Source: Eledone cirrhosa
Lineage: Eukaryota
Direction: 5' to 3'
Length of the DNA: 64,000 nucleotides
Assembly: GCA_964016885.1 (NCBI GenBank)
Contig: OZ024745.1
Coordinates: 92,442,001 to 92,506,000 of the forward strand
A model generated the notes under the pieces. The model saw only the letters and a program-made list of their open reading frames with translations, had not been told where the DNA came from and ran no database searches. Position numbers and translations under genes: made by a program. This document shows positions 8,867 to 52,733 of the stretch, piece by piece. Each line of letters starts with the position of its first letter. Within the stretch, counting starts at the first letter, position 1.

Positions 8867-8925
8867 ATTCTATTACATATATTTCAAGGGCACCAAAATA
8901 TTGGTACGCTATCATCAGATAAAAT
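8867..8925 (-). ncRNA. Minimal type-I hammerhead ribozyme motif
   Basis: Minus strand ATTTTAT-CTGATGA-TAGCGTACCAATATTTTGGTGCCCTT-GAAA-TATATG-TA-ATAGAAT. 7-bp stem I (one G-U), stem II hairpin, GUA triplet. Confidence 0.7.
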
Positions 8926-9274
8926 TCAAAATGTTTTATAAATATTTGACATAACCAAGGATAATATACCTTAACTGTTATAATATACCTCAAGTTATCC
9001 CTGGAAAGGATACTTTCCAGGGATAACTTGAACCGCTAAGTTAAATATGGTTTTATAAATATAGTTTCCATTTATTTAATATCATTGAATATTATAATCC
9101 AGAAAATCTGTTGAGTGCTCTGAATCAGTTATAAACATTTATATTTGTTGAATTACCAACAAATTGAATATCCCTTCTGCTTATATACATACATATATAT
9201 ATTCATACACATATATATTCATACATATATATATATACATATATATATACATACATATATATATTCATACATAT

Positions 9275-10512
9275 TGCTGTGCCAATTCTAACGCCAACAT
9301 TTGGCCTGCTGAACTGGTCATTGCAAGAATTAAGTGAATTGGATGTTAGAACTCGCAAACTTCTCAGTGTTACTGGGAACTTTAACATCAATGGTGATGT
9401 GGATAGGCTATACTTCTTATGCAAGGAAGGTGGCCGGGGTCTAAAATCCATATTAACAACATATGAGACCCGGATAGTAACACTGAAGCAACACCTTCAA
9501 CAGAGGAAAAAGGTTGGCAACCATCTTGCCTAGGTTTATGAACATGAAAAAAAAATATCATTAGAATAGCGACTGATCTGGAGGAGAGATATGGAATAAA
9601 GCCTGATATAAATCTCTCACCCAGAGAAATCGGAAGATCCTATTCAATGTTCAAACAAGATGAAAAAAATTGACCAATTTACAGAAAAAGTTGTGCATGG
9701 ATACTTGAGACGTAAAACACAGACAATAGAGGGGATAAACCACTCAAAAAGCCTGGCATGGAGTTCCGACAAGTTTATGACATCACACCTTGAGGGATAT
9801 CTCTATGCAATACAGGAACAAGAACTCCCTACCAAATATCTGCTGCACAAAAGGGGAGGGCCAGCAGCTGACAATAAATGTAGGCTATGTAAAACAAAGA
9901 TCGAGGATGTAAGCCACATTGTTGCCAGCTGCGAAAGAATGTCATCTCGCTACTACCTCCCCATGAGACACGATGGGATAGCTAGAACTATCTGGAACGC
10001 ACTTCGGAAAACAAAATTAACAACAAACGAGGAAGAATATATTGAGACAGATGGCACTAAGGAATACTGGTGGAACCTGAAAATAAAAACTGCCACCAAA
10101 TTAAAGCACAACCGGTCTGATATTGTTTGGGACCACAGATTGAAAACGTGTTCTGTTGTGGAGATCAGCTGCCCACTTGATGTAAACGTTGTCAGAAAAA
10201 TACAGGAGGAGGACATCTACGGACCATTGATGAGGAGTTTACAAATCCAGTATCCAAGATACACCTTTAGCTTCATACCCACCATTATTGGAGCTACGGG
10301 TTATATACCAACCCGCTTGGACCAAAGTATGACTGAACTTGGATTTGCGGACAAAGAGCGCAGCTCCCTAATTCATAGTCTACAAATGGCTGCGATAGTT
10401 GGCACCTTCAAAATTTGCAAAACATTCTTGCGATTCAAGGGATGACAATTTCTTTTCTTTTACAGGAAGGTGGCCAGTCAAAAAAATATTCTCAAAATTA
10501 AGAGAAAGAGAC
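9275..10512 (+). mobile_element. 5'-truncated non-LTR retrotransposon with restriction-like endonuclease (R4/NeSL group)
   Basis: RLY...EGGRGL thumb region, CRLC..E...HI...C zinc knuckle, RHD, and RSDIV...VVEISCP endonuclease motifs. Contains a stop and a frameshift. Confidence 0.85.
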
Positions 10513-10546
10513 ATATATATTCATACATATATATATATACATATAT

Positions 10547-11060
10547 ATGAAGGATGACAGCTGCATAAAAAGGTGCAGAGCACTAGAAGTTGATGGAAAC
10601 CGCGGAGTGGGGAGACCCAAGATGACCTGGGATGAGGTGATAAAAGCTGACCTTACCCAATTACACCTCTCAAAGACAATGACACACGACCGTGACTTCT
10701 GGCGTCACGCAGTAATACAGAGTACCCGACCCCCCATGGGTACAAGCTGAAGCATATAGACAATATGCCCCCACTCCCCCCACCGCAAGGTGGTCATGGA
10801 GGTGCCACGGCAAAAAAGCACCCAGCCCACACTGTAAAGTGGACATGTAGGCGCCACGAAAAAGCACCCAGCACTCACTGTAAATGAGGTTGGTGTTAGG
10901 AAGGGCATCCAGCTGTAGAAATCAAGCCAGATCAGTTCCTGTATGAGCAAGGCATGGTCAGCCGACCAGACAATGCCCACAACAGGACAACCCGTCTAAC
11001 CCATGCTAGCGTGGAAGAACGGACGTAAAACGGTGATGATGATGATGATGATGATGATGA
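10547..11060 (+). mobile_element. RTE LINE 3' end, near-identical inverted copy of ~6190-6715
   Basis: MKDDSCIKRCRALEVDGNRGVGRPKMTW... is almost identical to the end of the 6502-6951 ORF. Confidence 0.85.
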
Positions 11061-48904: not shown

Positions 48905-50600
48905 ACACTTGCAAACACACACTCACGCACACACAATTATATACATACACACATATATATATACATACATACACACATATATATATACATACATACACAC
49001 ACACATATACACACACATATACACATATATATGTGTACACATACACATACATATACACATACATACACACATAAATATCAACATATCCATACATACACAT
49101 ACATATATACAACCACACACATATATATACATATATATATAGAAATAGAAATATATATATATATATACATACACATACACATACATAGCCAAACACACAT
49201 ACATATACATACATACATACATACACACAATCATACGTATATACACACATACATACATACACATACATACACACACATATACATGCATACATATGCATGC
49301 ACAAAAATAGAAAAATATACACACACCTCTACATATTCACACACACAAATAAATATAAGAAAAAATATATATAATAATAAAAGACATAAAAAAGAAAATA
49401 AAGACTATTATAAAGTTGACAGCGATACAGGCAACAAATAAATGAACAAACACACGTGGTAAGCAATACACACAAATTCACGTACACATACGTACGTAAA
49501 AATAAATACATACACACACTCTCACACATAAATATACATATACAGATACATAAACACATACATACGCATACACAAATACATACACACACACACACATACA
49601 TATATACACACACATATACATATATATATATATATATATATATATATATATATATATATATATATATACACACACATACATCAATAGCCATACAATTATA
49701 CACATACAAATACGTACATATCACAAACACACACAACCAAATACAAACACACACACATATATATATGTGTGTAAAACTCATTCTTAGATAATTCATATGA
49801 ACCTTATTTAACTCTAAAATATACATATATATATATATATATATATATATATATATATATATATATATATATATATATATATATATATATATATGTAGAT
49901 AAATCTACCAAGAGTTTACGGTAGTGTCCAATCCGTATGAAGAACTCAATGTATTCCGGATATCATGGAAAGAAGAGATGTAATGAAAAACCACTTTCGG
50001 TGAAAGATAAACGGTAAACAGAGTCAAGATAAAATATTAAACAAATAATGAATAAACAATTCCTTATATTAAACAAAAAAAGTTCATTATTTAACGATCG
50101 TTTCTATATATATATATATATATATATATATATATACACATACACATACATACATACTAACATACACATATATACCTACACACACATATATATATACACA
50201 TACGTATGCATACGTACACACACACACATATACATATATAACTCAATATATATATATATATATATGAGAAAGAACATAAATATTATAAAATAAATATTGT
50301 ATATATAAAAAAAATTGGGAATACGACAAATAATAAATAAAAAATATATATTTAGAAAAGGGTATAAATTCCTGGAGCAAAAGATCAATGAAAATAATCA
50401 TCAAATCACTATATGTAATGATGCACATACATACACCCTTATACATATATACATATACACACACACACAAACACACACACACAAATATATATACATACAC
50501 ACACGCACAAAAAAAAACCCAACCGCAGATATACAAACACACATACAATTACGTATATATACATATATATATATATATATATATATATATATACACACAC
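48905..50600. repeat. Degenerate (CA)n/(TACA)n/(TA)n low-complexity region
   Basis: Seen directly. Confidence 0.9.
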
Positions 50601-50883
50601 ACATAGGAAAAAGTCTGACCCTACGGCAGAGCTCAACCCTTTTCTGAAGCTATTATATAAAAACACACAAAATCATTATATAAAAAATTAATATCTAAAA
50701 ATAAAAACATTTTGGTATGTGAAGGGTAAGGCAAAAAAACAGGGGGGGGAAAGAGGGAGGGAAAATGACATAGGAAAAGGTTTAAATATAAGGGAAGATA
50801 AGGGAGAAAGAGAATACAAGAGTACAGAACGTGGATTCAGCAGGTAAAAAAACCGTAGTAGAAGTAAAGAGCAGAAAAGGAGT

Positions 50884-51305
50884 TCAAGGTGGTTGAGTTA
50901 TCATAGGAATGTCAATCCAGTTACAGATCAGATGTGATTTCAGATGAGGACAACATCTGAAGATCTCGGTCTTTGAGTTCAGGCAAGCAGAAGTGGCTTT
51001 CAAGTTTAGCAAAATCCTATATTTTTCTGTGGTACACAAAGAACAATTCTTTGTGCCCCTTTGGTACTCCCTTGAATGGTCTAAAATAGACCAATCGATA
51101 GAGTACGGGATGTTTTTATCCTTGAAATCACACACCTTACTTGCGAGGGCTGTTGTTGTTCGTTTATCGGAGTGCTTAAAAGTAGCGACATGTGCATAAA
51201 ACCTGGTTTTAAACCTGTCCTGGGTCATACCAACATATCGCTCACTCCTGGCTGGCTGGTTGTTGATTAAAGGTGTTACTTTAGCCTCATAAACAACAGA
51301 TTTGG
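50884..51305 (-). mobile_element. Penelope-like GIY-YIG endonuclease fragment, third family
   Basis: KSVVYEAKV...RYVGMTQDRFKTRFYAH...F......T.L...W.IL.....Y......C.LC..EK..I......LN...E....C.H. Confidence 0.88.
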
Positions 51306-52733
51306 TGCCTTATGTTGTTTATTACATAACTATTAAGCTCTGTTACCTACACTGAGCACTCTTTTTTCCTGGACTTTTCCGACGGAATTACTTCATATAT
51401 ATATATATATATACATATATATATGTATGTAAAAGGTAAACAGAAATAACAACACAATCGGTACAGTATATGGAAGGGATATATTAGGTTAACGCTTAAA
51501 ATAGCAGGAAGAGGGTCTTAACGTTTCGGACGCTAGTCCTTCACCAGAAGAAAGAATGAGAAATAAGATAGATTGAGGGGACAGGCGGGTTGGAATTGGA
51601 AAAAATGTCTTTAGATAAAAATAACATCTCATGGAAAACTGTTGGTACTGGTATTTTGAGTATGACTTATTTTTTAGAAAAGTAGATGATTGAGTGTGTC
51701 TACCTGAAATGGAAAAAAAACCGTTTTGTAAAAAGAGCTATACTTGTGCACTTGCGTACTCATGTGTGTGTGCGTGTGTGTTATTATGCGTCCGTATGAA
51801 GCTAAGAAGAAATGTGTGTATATGTAAGTAAAAGAGTGTGTGTGCATGTAAGTATGAAGCTATGAGCAAAAGTATGTTAATATAAGGGTGTGTATATGTG
51901 TATACAGAGCAGTGAAGGGAAAAGTGGAGTGAACATATTTAGTCGGTCTGTATTAGTTGTAAGTGAAGATGTTAATGATCAAGAGAGAGCAATAGGAATC
52001 TAGGGGTACAAGCACGTGTGAAAATGGATGGGGGTATTAAAGAAATTGGGGAGGTGAGTTGAGTCCAAGAGGGGAATAGGACCCAATCATCATCATTTTA
52101 CGTCCGGTTTTCTTTGCTTGTGTGTGTGTGTGCGTGCATATTGTCTCCCCCTCTCACTCTATAGGGTAGAAAGAGCTACTGAGTCAAGTCAATGATCAGT
52201 AACTTCCTTAGTGCCATAATAAAATGTACTTAGTACACTCTGTAAATTGGTTAGTGATAGGATGGTCATCCTCTGTAAAAACCATGACAAAATCTGAAAT
52301 TATGTGAGATGACTTCCAGTCAGTCTGGAAGGACAGGAGTTCTGATTAGTATTACTTTGGTTTGTGATAACCTATCCAACCCAATTGGAATATGCTGCAG
52401 TGGATTGGCAGTATTGGTAGAGCGTCGGACACCATGCTTTGCACCATAGAGTTACGGCCCTTTACAGTATGAGTTCAAATCCTGCCAAGGTTAGCTTTGC
52501 CTTTCATCCATAAAATAAAGCACCAGTAATGCACTTGGGTCGATTTAATTGACTTCCCCGCTCTCCCAAAATTGCTGGCCTTGTGCCTATAGTAGAAACA
52601 ATTATTATTATTACCATTCTTACGGGGTCGATTTAATCAACTTTCCCCTTCCCCAAAAATTGCTGGCCTTGTGCCTAAATCAGAAACTATTATTTATCTA
52701 TAACACTCTATATTACTGCCTTGCTCCCCATTC

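What the first reader, a model, noticed from the sequence alone, without database searches (positions are those of the whole stretch)
8867..51551. A concentration of hammerhead ribozyme motifs from unrelated repeats, four in sense inside one host intron
Seen: about nine CUGANGA...GAAA...NUH folds at 8867(-), 11655(+, variant), 26918(+), 27230(+), 31286(-), 32772(+), 37367(-), 47831(+) and 51516(-, mutated). They have different stems, so they come from several families. Known: Penelope-like elements carry minimal type-I hammerheads with short, often palindromic stem III that cleave best as dimers. Inference: those at 26918, 27230, 32772 and 47831 would be transcribed in sense within intron 1 of the ATPase beta gene. 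They could cut the pre-mRNA co-transcriptionally, making splicing compete with self-cleavage, or release intronic RNAs.
Basis: partly seen in the sequence, partly recalled or inferred. Interest (0 to 1): 0.8.

Follow-up and report, generated by a model that had tools for sequence, protein, structure and literature searches.

The report
Penelope hammerheads in a microsatellite intron
The hammerhead-shaped RNA motifs are real, but they are passengers of common jumping-gene repeats at close to this genome's normal density, equally often on both strands of this intron, so they likely do not regulate this gene; across other genes, lone copies are rarer in the sense direction, which may reflect selection.

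Summary
All nine motifs trace to hammerhead-bearing repeats, but they are seven insertions, not nine: 26918/27230 are two units of one 311-bp tandem retrozyme; 31286/32772 are the inverted arms of one Penelope-like element. Six of nine pass my descriptor; two more were missed (11412-, 48796-). Intron 1 of the Na/K-ATPase beta gene (18140-56681) is confirmed, and holds 4 sense and 4 antisense motifs. The concentration is ordinary: 8 per 64 kb against 3.5 in a 600-kb genome sample (bootstrap P 0.055; roughly 165,000 genome-wide); three myosin genes are denser. The intron is 45% (TA)n-type repeat, where these elements sit. Of the four sense motifs one is predicted masked by its antisense arm, one has a broken stem I, one misfolds locally; only 26918 looks competent. 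No RNA data were available. One lead: in 904 kb of other genes, lone intact motifs run 7 sense to 24 antisense (random 12:13; gene-level P 0.04), while inverted pairs are balanced; poly(A) signals could equally explain it. Known kind; the scan reached a similar verdict in another genome.

The parts
17998..18139 (+). Na/K-ATPase beta subunit gene, first coding exon
   Evidence: PF00287 positions 8-31, E 7e-4; GT donor, phase 1
18140..56681 (+). Intron 1, 38.5 kb as assembled, 45% alternating dinucleotide repeat
56682..56825 (+). Coding exon 2
   Evidence: PF00287 positions 33-71, weak alone (E 0.03); in frame with exon 1
57727..57831 (+). Coding exon 3
   Evidence: AG/GT bounded, in frame
62058..62239 (+). 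Coding exon 4 (further exons near 72135 and 73260, beyond the window)
   Evidence: PF00287 positions 128-180, E 8e-7
26612..26811 (.). 200-N assembly gap directly 5' of the retrozyme units; may hide more units and an antisense arm
   Evidence: 9 of 10 fully listed arrays of this family have a minus arm before the plus arm
26812..27395 (+). Two units (about 311 bp, 35% GC) of a tandem non-LTR retrozyme
   Evidence: 3709 exact copies of the 37-nt motif
26918..26960 (+). Type I hammerhead, intact core, palindromic 2-bp stem III, GUA site at 26954; best candidate for activity
   Evidence: stems I and II at P 0.76-0.99 in local fold
27230..27273 (+). Second retrozyme hammerhead, stem I broken by one extra base; site at 27266
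   Evidence: fails descriptor; variant absent from 54 held copies elsewhere
31131..33028 (.). One truncated Penelope-like element as a head-to-head inverted duplication (arms 31131-31952 and 32149-32971, 99% identical) with GIY-YIG fragments
   Evidence: PF01541 E 7e-5 and 5e-5
31286..31330 (-). Hammerhead with extra base between positions 9 and 10.1, antisense arm
   Evidence: 5129 exact copies of the 35-nt motif
32772..32816 (+). Same hammerhead, sense arm; predicted fully paired to the earlier-transcribed antisense arm; site at 32811
   Evidence: 48 of 48 nt paired in the fold of 31131-33028
37212..38551 (-). Penelope-like 3' fragment with broken GIY-YIG frame; hammerhead at 37367-37405 (U-U at base of stem II)
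   Evidence: PF01541 E 0.0025, under cut-off; same motif recurs in other genes
47655..47992 (+). 3' end of a young Penelope-like family; hammerhead at 47831-47942 with about 85-nt stem II insert and A-G closing mismatch; site at 47938
   Evidence: 1562 candidates, 98% identical; GIY-YIG frame ends about 450 nt upstream in relatives; not folded as hammerhead in local MFE
48744..48803 (-).
   Evidence: family recurs in random sample
51516..51551 (-). Minimal hammerhead (1-bp palindromic stem III), core A6 changed to G in this copy
   Evidence: 1744 candidates; most of the 21 aligned copies keep the core
8866..8926 (-). Hammerhead, slightly diverged copy; outside the gene
   Evidence: 1066 candidates; family covariation
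11374..11417 (-).
   Evidence: 5756 candidates
11655..11750 (+). Decayed copy of a U3-A8 core-variant hammerhead family (long stem II, 5-bp stem III)
   Evidence: 3156 candidates; alignment of 12 copies
27399..47655 (.). 20-kb (TA)n-type array into which several of the elements are nested

Best explanation
These are type I hammerhead motifs carried at the 3' ends of several high-copy Penelope-like retroelements and one tandem retrozyme, which likely use them to cut their own RNA and likely piled up here because the intron is rich in their (TA)n target, with probably little effect on the host gene. Shown: motif anatomy, repeat membership, copy numbers, GIY-YIG linkage for three insertions, tandem and inverted arrangement, (TA)n adjacency, near-background density. 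Inferred from published work: self-cleavage trims element RNA out of longer transcripts; two cuts in the tandem would free a 311-312-nt monomer that is circularised, reverse-transcribed and inserted by Penelope proteins. Predicted for the host pre-mRNA: 32772 is buried in a long hairpin with its antisense arm, 27230 is crippled, 47831 misfolds, and only 26918 (about 30 kb before the 3' splice site) could cut at a useful rate.
For: 8 motifs vs 0.01 in shuffles. Each site has 861-5756 genome candidates or 3709-5129 exact copies. GIY-YIG 284-450 nt upstream in sense for 31286/32772, 37367 and the 47831 family. In 22 flank-anchored relatives of 8867 the core varies mainly at N7 and stems show 26 double-sided changes vs 9.7 shuffled, 0 of 500. 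Background 33 motifs in 600 kb = 3.5 per 64 kb; myosin intervals reach 12.6-18.6. 28 of 32 sampled motifs have (TA)6+ within 300 nt downstream vs 21% of random positions; intron 45% vs genome 9% alternating repeat. Extra base at 9/10.1, palindromic stem III, U3-A8 variant, opposite-strand pairs and low activity of minimal motifs are all described in PMC4209133.
Against: No cleavage or RNA data. Window density is at the upper tail (P 0.055; Poisson 0.028). No link to a Penelope ORF was shown for the 11412, 11655 and 48796 families (only chance-like or no matches) and only one copy each for 8867 and 51516. No motif reaches Rfam thresholds. The deficit of lone sense motifs in other genes suggests sense insertions are not fully neutral. 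Local folding predictions changed with window size (37367: vs 66) and ignore tertiary contacts. The covariation control does not correct for relatedness.
Confidence: 0.8

Rival explanations
1. One reading: the four sense hammerheads are a functional device that cuts the ATPase beta pre-mRNA during transcription and tunes its splicing, as reported for the CPEB3 ribozyme.
For: Four sense motifs do lie in intron 1, 8.7-29.7 kb before the 3' splice site; CPEB3's ribozyme sits 9931 nt before its exon and affects mRNA maturation (PMC10919898 passages); 26918 folds well.
Against: Equal antisense count; copies near-identical to thousands elsewhere; similar loads in other genes; three of four predicted impaired; no conservation evidence.
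Confidence: 0.07
2. The motifs cut host pre-mRNAs often enough to be harmful, so lone sense copies are purged from introns genome-wide, and sense copies persist mainly when an upstream antisense arm pairs with them. Compatible with the best explanation; it concerns why orientation is skewed.
For: In 24 gene-oriented intervals (904.5 kb): 24 sense vs 42 antisense motifs; lone events 10:23, P 0.035, same in myosins (5:11) and channels (5:12); strict lone intact 7:24, inverted-paired 17:18, random 12:13; gene-level P 0.039; closed-stem-II lone motifs 1:14 vs random 9:8, P 0.007; in 13 of 13 inverted events the antisense arm is transcribed first; RTE fragments unbiased 19:21.
Against: Small, post hoc sample. 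Intact-versus-broken contrast was P 0.008 in the loose count but 0.13 in the strict one. Genes vs random P 0.054. Predicted folding quality did not stratify (0:3 and 7:21). One repeat without a hammerhead is also skewed, 52:82, P 0.012. The window's own intron shows 2:2 lone intact motifs.
Confidence: 0.3
3. The intronic antisense skew is real but caused by poly(A) signals or other sense-strand signals in the element 3' ends, with the hammerheads largely inert inside host transcripts.
For: AATAAA lies on the motif strand near 72 of 98 motifs vs 45 of 98 on the other strand; a long hairpin would mask it too; minimal Penelope hammerheads cleaved poorly in vitro (PMC4209133); a non-hammerhead repeat is skewed.
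Against: Broken lone copies, which should keep poly(A) signals, are not skewed (10:12); RTE fragments are not skewed.
Confidence: 0.3
4. The motifs are chance matches in AT-rich sequence.
For: None reaches an Rfam threshold; bare CUGANGA cores occur at near-chance numbers (31 seen, 22 expected); one chance-looking hit passed an early loose scan (63755-).
Against: 8 vs 0.01 in shuffles; family conservation with free N7 and compensatory changes.
Confidence: 0.02

Closest known systems
Minimal and variant type I hammerheads in pseudo-LTRs of metazoan Penelope-like elements (Cervera and De la Pena 2014, PMC4209133)
   Same: Position 3' of a C-terminal GIY-YIG frame, extra base between 9 and 10.1, short palindromic stem III, long stem II, U3-A8 variant, many families per genome, pairs on opposite strands, mostly solo truncated copies.
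   Different: Scale: about 165,000 by extrapolation (95% range 110,000-225,000) vs about 2,000-9,000 quoted there; several families here have U-U, A-A or A-G in place of G10.1-C11.1; one has an 85-nt stem II insert.
Metazoan non-LTR retrozymes (PMC7229834; bioRxiv 10.64898/2026.07.22.740005)
   Same: About 310-bp, low-GC tandem unit with one type I hammerhead each, no ORF, dimers to long multimers, coexisting with Penelope elements; 42-44% of Xenopus copies are intronic with mild depletion.
   Different: Arrays here are usually head-to-head inverted and flanked by (TA)n, i.e. Penelope-style integration; expression and circular RNA untested; strand bias within introns was not found in the passages I read.
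Neptune-type Penelope elements with (TA)n insertion bias and tandem/inverted structures (PMC8557442)
   Same: Cys-rich linker before GIY-YIG, microsatellite targets, inverted 5'-truncated arm.
   Different: Clade not assigned here; no RT tree was built.
Functional intronic ribozymes: mammalian CPEB3 HDV-like ribozyme (PMC10919898); amniote HH9/HH10 hammerheads (recalled; paper not held)
   Same: Sense ribozyme kilobases upstream of the next exon.
   Different: Those are single-copy and conserved; these are young repeats with thousands of near-identical copies.

Membership tests
Type I hammerhead ribozyme | CUGANGA and GAAA core with NUH site, three stems, open stem I | tested here: met
   8 window motifs pass descriptor; 27230, 51516, 11655 copies are damaged members of conforming families
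Type I hammerhead ribozyme | Stem covariation with invariant core | tested here: met
   8867 superfamily only, 22 sequences; other families too young to show it
Type I hammerhead ribozyme | Rfam hammerhead model above gathering score | tested here: not met
   best 17.8 of 52 bits (48796 was not among the 10 loci scanned)
Type I hammerhead ribozyme | Site-specific self-cleavage | not testable with these tools
   no assay; no RNA run listed
Penelope-like element pseudo-LTR | Motif in sense, 3' of a GIY-YIG endonuclease frame | tested here: met
   31286/32772, 37367, 47831 family; single relatives for 8867 and 51516
Penelope-like element pseudo-LTR | Same link for 11412, 11655, 48796 families | tested here: inconclusive
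   no convincing upstream frame within 1.5 kb in 26, 12 and 10 occurrences
Penelope-like element pseudo-LTR | Tandem/inverted truncated insertions, (TA)n target | tested here: met
Penelope-like element pseudo-LTR | Telomerase-like RT placing it in a named clade | not tested
   RT-region frames seen beside the 47831 family but not classified
Non-LTR retrozyme | 150-450-bp low-GC tandem unit, one type I hammerhead per unit, no coding frame | tested here: met
   311-312 nt, 35% GC; 39 unit matches in one 11.7-kb array
Non-LTR retrozyme | Expressed as linear and circular monomer RNA | not testable with these tools
   340-nt looped contigs in three runs of unrecorded kind arise equally from tandem DNA
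Host-regulatory intronic ribozyme (CPEB3/HH9 kind) | Single-copy, positionally conserved motif | tested here: not met
   thousands of near-identical copies; cross-species position could not be tested

The most novel reading that the evidence does not exclude
This genome's roughly 165,000 Penelope hammerheads cut host pre-mRNAs in vivo strongly enough that selection removes lone sense copies from introns about threefold, and the element's habit of inserting head-to-head puts an antisense arm first in any host transcript, masking the ribozyme and letting such insertions survive: a genome-scale readout of whether minimal Penelope hammerheads are active in cells.
Probability: 0.25. Interest if true: 0.65.

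Novelty: new member of a known kind. Interest (0 to 1): 0.3.

Why it matters
As a locus it is ordinary: intronic Penelope hammerheads and retrozymes are described, and this intron is unremarkable for its genome. What is useful is the scale (among the largest hammerhead loads, with a very young 311-bp retrozyme and a U3-A8 family) and a cheap test of an open question: minimal Penelope hammerheads cleave poorly in vitro and their in vivo activity is unshown (PMC4209133). A strand skew in introns that follows core integrity would be population-genetic evidence that they cut in cells. My sample hints at the skew but cannot separate it from poly(A) effects.

Tried and rejected
Rfam scan of the whole window was swamped by microRNA models on (TA)n; only 150 of 664 rows were shown and none was a hammerhead. 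The repeat finder and ORF listing were swamped likewise. DNA searches for the 32772 and 37367 families returned nothing because common words are skipped; a pattern search gave the count for 32772; 37367 has no genome count. No RNA holder listed; this says nothing on expression. Run X1 covers exons and introns continuously with no splice joints, so it behaves as DNA; X4-X6 did not cover the gene. Looped 340-nt contigs in X4-X6 rejected as evidence of circular RNA. RNAalifold on the 8867 family gave a non-hammerhead register because of gaps; the named structure was counted instead. The palindrome-swapped dimer of 26918/27230 was not populated in the ensemble and cost about 5 kcal/mol; such models are poor for this. 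No autonomous partner of the retrozyme was found among held loci, only diverged partial relatives. The intact-versus-decayed contrast did not survive the stricter definition. 63755- rejected as chance (not passed). Two 20-kb intervals of uncertain gene membership (C3) were kept in the total; they held no motif.
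Full report
Setting. The window is G000:C5:92442001-92506000 in a 3.0-Gb animal genome. Its repeat landscape looks octopus-like to me; that is recalled, not tested. The host gene is a Na/K-ATPase beta subunit on the plus strand: coding exons 17998-18139, 56682-56825, 57727-57831 and 62058-62239 splice in frame and three of them match successive parts of PF00287 (8-31, 33-71, 128-180; exon 3 was not scanned). 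Intron 1 is 18140-56681, contains a 200-N gap and is 45% alternating dinucleotide repeat against 9% in a genome sample.

Observation. A type I descriptor (exact core, optional base at 9/10.1 or one closing mismatch, stem I of 4 bp or more) finds 8 motifs in the window against 0.01 in 100 shuffles. The descriptor was loosened after I saw the window's motifs, which favours the window, and was then applied unchanged to every control. The three reader motifs that fail are damaged members of real families: 27230 has an extra base in stem I not seen in 54 held copies elsewhere; 51516 has A6 changed while most aligned copies keep it; 11655 belongs to a family whose core is the U3-A8 variant with long stem II and mostly a GUC site. 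Rfam gives only sub-threshold HH9 matches for 2 of 10 loci. For the 8867 superfamily I collected relatives by a downstream flank: 23 of 32 hits carry the core; in the 22 aligned (21 of those plus the window copy) N7 takes all four bases, 95.7% of cells pair and 26 cells change on both sides against 9.7 shuffled (relatedness not corrected).

What they belong to. 26918 and 27230 are two units of a 311-bp repeat with 3709 exact copies of its motif, found elsewhere as long head-to-head arrays in (TA)n (39 unit matches in one array; minus arm then plus arm in 9 of 10 fully listed loci). This fits the non-LTR retrozyme definition. The window's units start at the gap edge, so more units or an antisense arm may be hidden. 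31286 and 32772 are the 99%-identical inverted arms of one truncated Penelope-like element with GIY-YIG fragments; the motif has 5129 exact copies. 37367 lies 381 nt behind another GIY-YIG fragment. 47831 is the 3' end of a young family (1562 candidates), with a GIY-YIG-like frame upstream in 14 of 23 held occurrences. For 8867 and 51516 one relative each shows such a frame; for 11412, 11655 and 48796 none was convincing. So the nine motifs are seven insertions, and eleven motifs are nine insertions.

Is it a concentration? Sixty evenly spaced 10-kb stretches hold 33 motifs, 3.5 per 64 kb (shuffles 0.5 per 600 kb), about 165,000 genome-wide (110,000-225,000). Eight per 64 kb has bootstrap P 0.055. 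Three of 19 myosin intervals are denser (12.6, 17.3, 18.6 per 64 kb), one with 6 sense motifs; 14 of the 24 gene intervals have none. 28 of 32 sampled motifs have (TA)6+ within 300 nt downstream against 21% of random positions, which accounts for a (TA)n-rich intron collecting them.

The four sense motifs. Intron 1 has 4 sense and 4 antisense motifs. In a fold of 31131-33028 all 48 bases around 32772 pair with the antisense arm, which is transcribed first. 47831 does not adopt the hammerhead in its local fold and has an A-G closing mismatch, though this is the family's normal sequence. 26918 forms stems I and II at P 0.76-0.99 (all). A dimer with 27230 is not populated in the ensemble. These are secondary-structure predictions and shifted with window size for 37367. 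No RNA run was listed and the one run that covers the gene behaves as DNA, so neither cleavage, expression nor the splice was observed.

Strand test in other genes. Using Pfam-located myosin and ion-channel exons I took 24 intervals of known direction, 904.5 kb. Motifs: 24 sense, 42 antisense; lone events 10:23 (P 0.035; myosins 5:11, channels 5:12); 13 inverted events, all antisense arm first; random control 13:14. With partners found by BLAST: lone intact 7:24, paired 17:18, lone broken 10:12, random lone 12:13; gene-level sign-flip P 0.039; genes vs random P 0.054; closed-stem-II lone motifs 1:14 vs 9:8, P 0.007. Against: intact-versus-broken is P 0.13 strict and 0.008 loose; folding quality does not stratify; of nine control repeats, five had 15 or more hits in genes, and one of these is skewed 52:82 while RTE pieces are 19:21 and 8:7; AATAAA is commoner on the motif strand, 72 vs 45 of 98. 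The cuts were chosen after seeing data. This is a lead, not a result.

Mechanism. Most likely each motif serves its element: cutting element RNA out of read-through or tandem transcripts, and for the retrozyme freeing a monomer for circularisation and copying by Penelope proteins (inferred from papers). The host intron most likely tolerates what it carries because survivors are masked, damaged or slow. The regulatory reading gets about 7%.

Literature. PMC4209133: parts 1-2 of 4 read. bioRxiv 10.64898/2026.07.22.740005: part 1 of 5 and passages; no hit for 'orientation' or 'antisense'. PMC7229834: passages. PMC8557442: passages. PMC10919898: passages, which cite Fong 2009 for faster intronic ribozymes lowering splicing; I did not see that paper. 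PMC13282606: passages, no 'ribozyme' or 'hammerhead' in the main text. 10.1101/2020.10.19.344200: passages, only a reference to exon tethering. PMC2933863 was not held. Searches for hammerheads in octopus or cephalopods and for intronic strand bias listed no paper on either; the library lacks most subscription papers and I opened no supplements, where cephalopod counts may stand. An earlier scan note reached a similar verdict in another genome.

Verdict. Real motifs, known kind, ordinary locus; interest 0.3, carried by the scale and the testable strand skew.

Noticed in passing
G000:C1:183180459-183192163 (L049, L050), G000:C1:22619087-22621455 (L051): Retrozyme arrays of essentially identical 311-bp units arranged head-to-head and ending in (TA)n: very recent amplification with Penelope-style integration.
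   Followed up: partly
window 11655-11750; L129-L139: High-copy (3156 candidates) hammerhead family with the U3-A8 compensatory core, about 11-bp stem II and 5-bp stem III; my exact-core descriptor misses it, so the genome total is an underestimate.
   Followed up: partly
window 47831-47942; several loci in L140-L294: Several families have 50-100-nt structured inserts in stem II, and several have a conserved U-U, A-A or A-G in place of the closing pair of stem II.
   Followed up: no
window 27399-47655: A 20-kb degenerate (TA)n array with a 73-bp repeat fragment recurring at 33194, 40065 and 42096 and a duplicated element end at 45851 and 47655, suggesting segmental duplication within the array or assembly trouble.
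   Followed up: no
window 15004-17917: A 68-bp G-rich minisatellite of 43 copies ends 80 bp before the start codon of the ATPase beta gene; an AG acceptor-like site just before the ATG hints at an upstream non-coding exon.
   Followed up: no
window 17998-62239: The beta subunit looks divergent and short in its extracellular part, possibly a specialised paralogue; paralogues were not searched.
   Followed up: no
window 7645-8562, 9612-10445, 6502-7302, 60490-60891, 50884-51309: Other mobile-element remnants: mariner-like transposase, R4/Dong-like and RTE-like LINE pieces, and a further GIY-YIG-like fragment (labels from recalled motifs; Pfam gave only zf-RVT and weak HTH).
   Followed up: partly
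intervals: Inverted-paired motifs are commoner inside the sampled genes (35 of 66) than in random stretches (8 of 33); one repeat without a hammerhead (window 56131-56312) is strand-skewed 52:82 in genes.
   Followed up: partly
runs X4, X5, X6: The retrozyme unit appears as a single 340-nt looped contig, 97-99% identical, in runs labelled as three other organisms; kind of run not on record.
   Followed up: no
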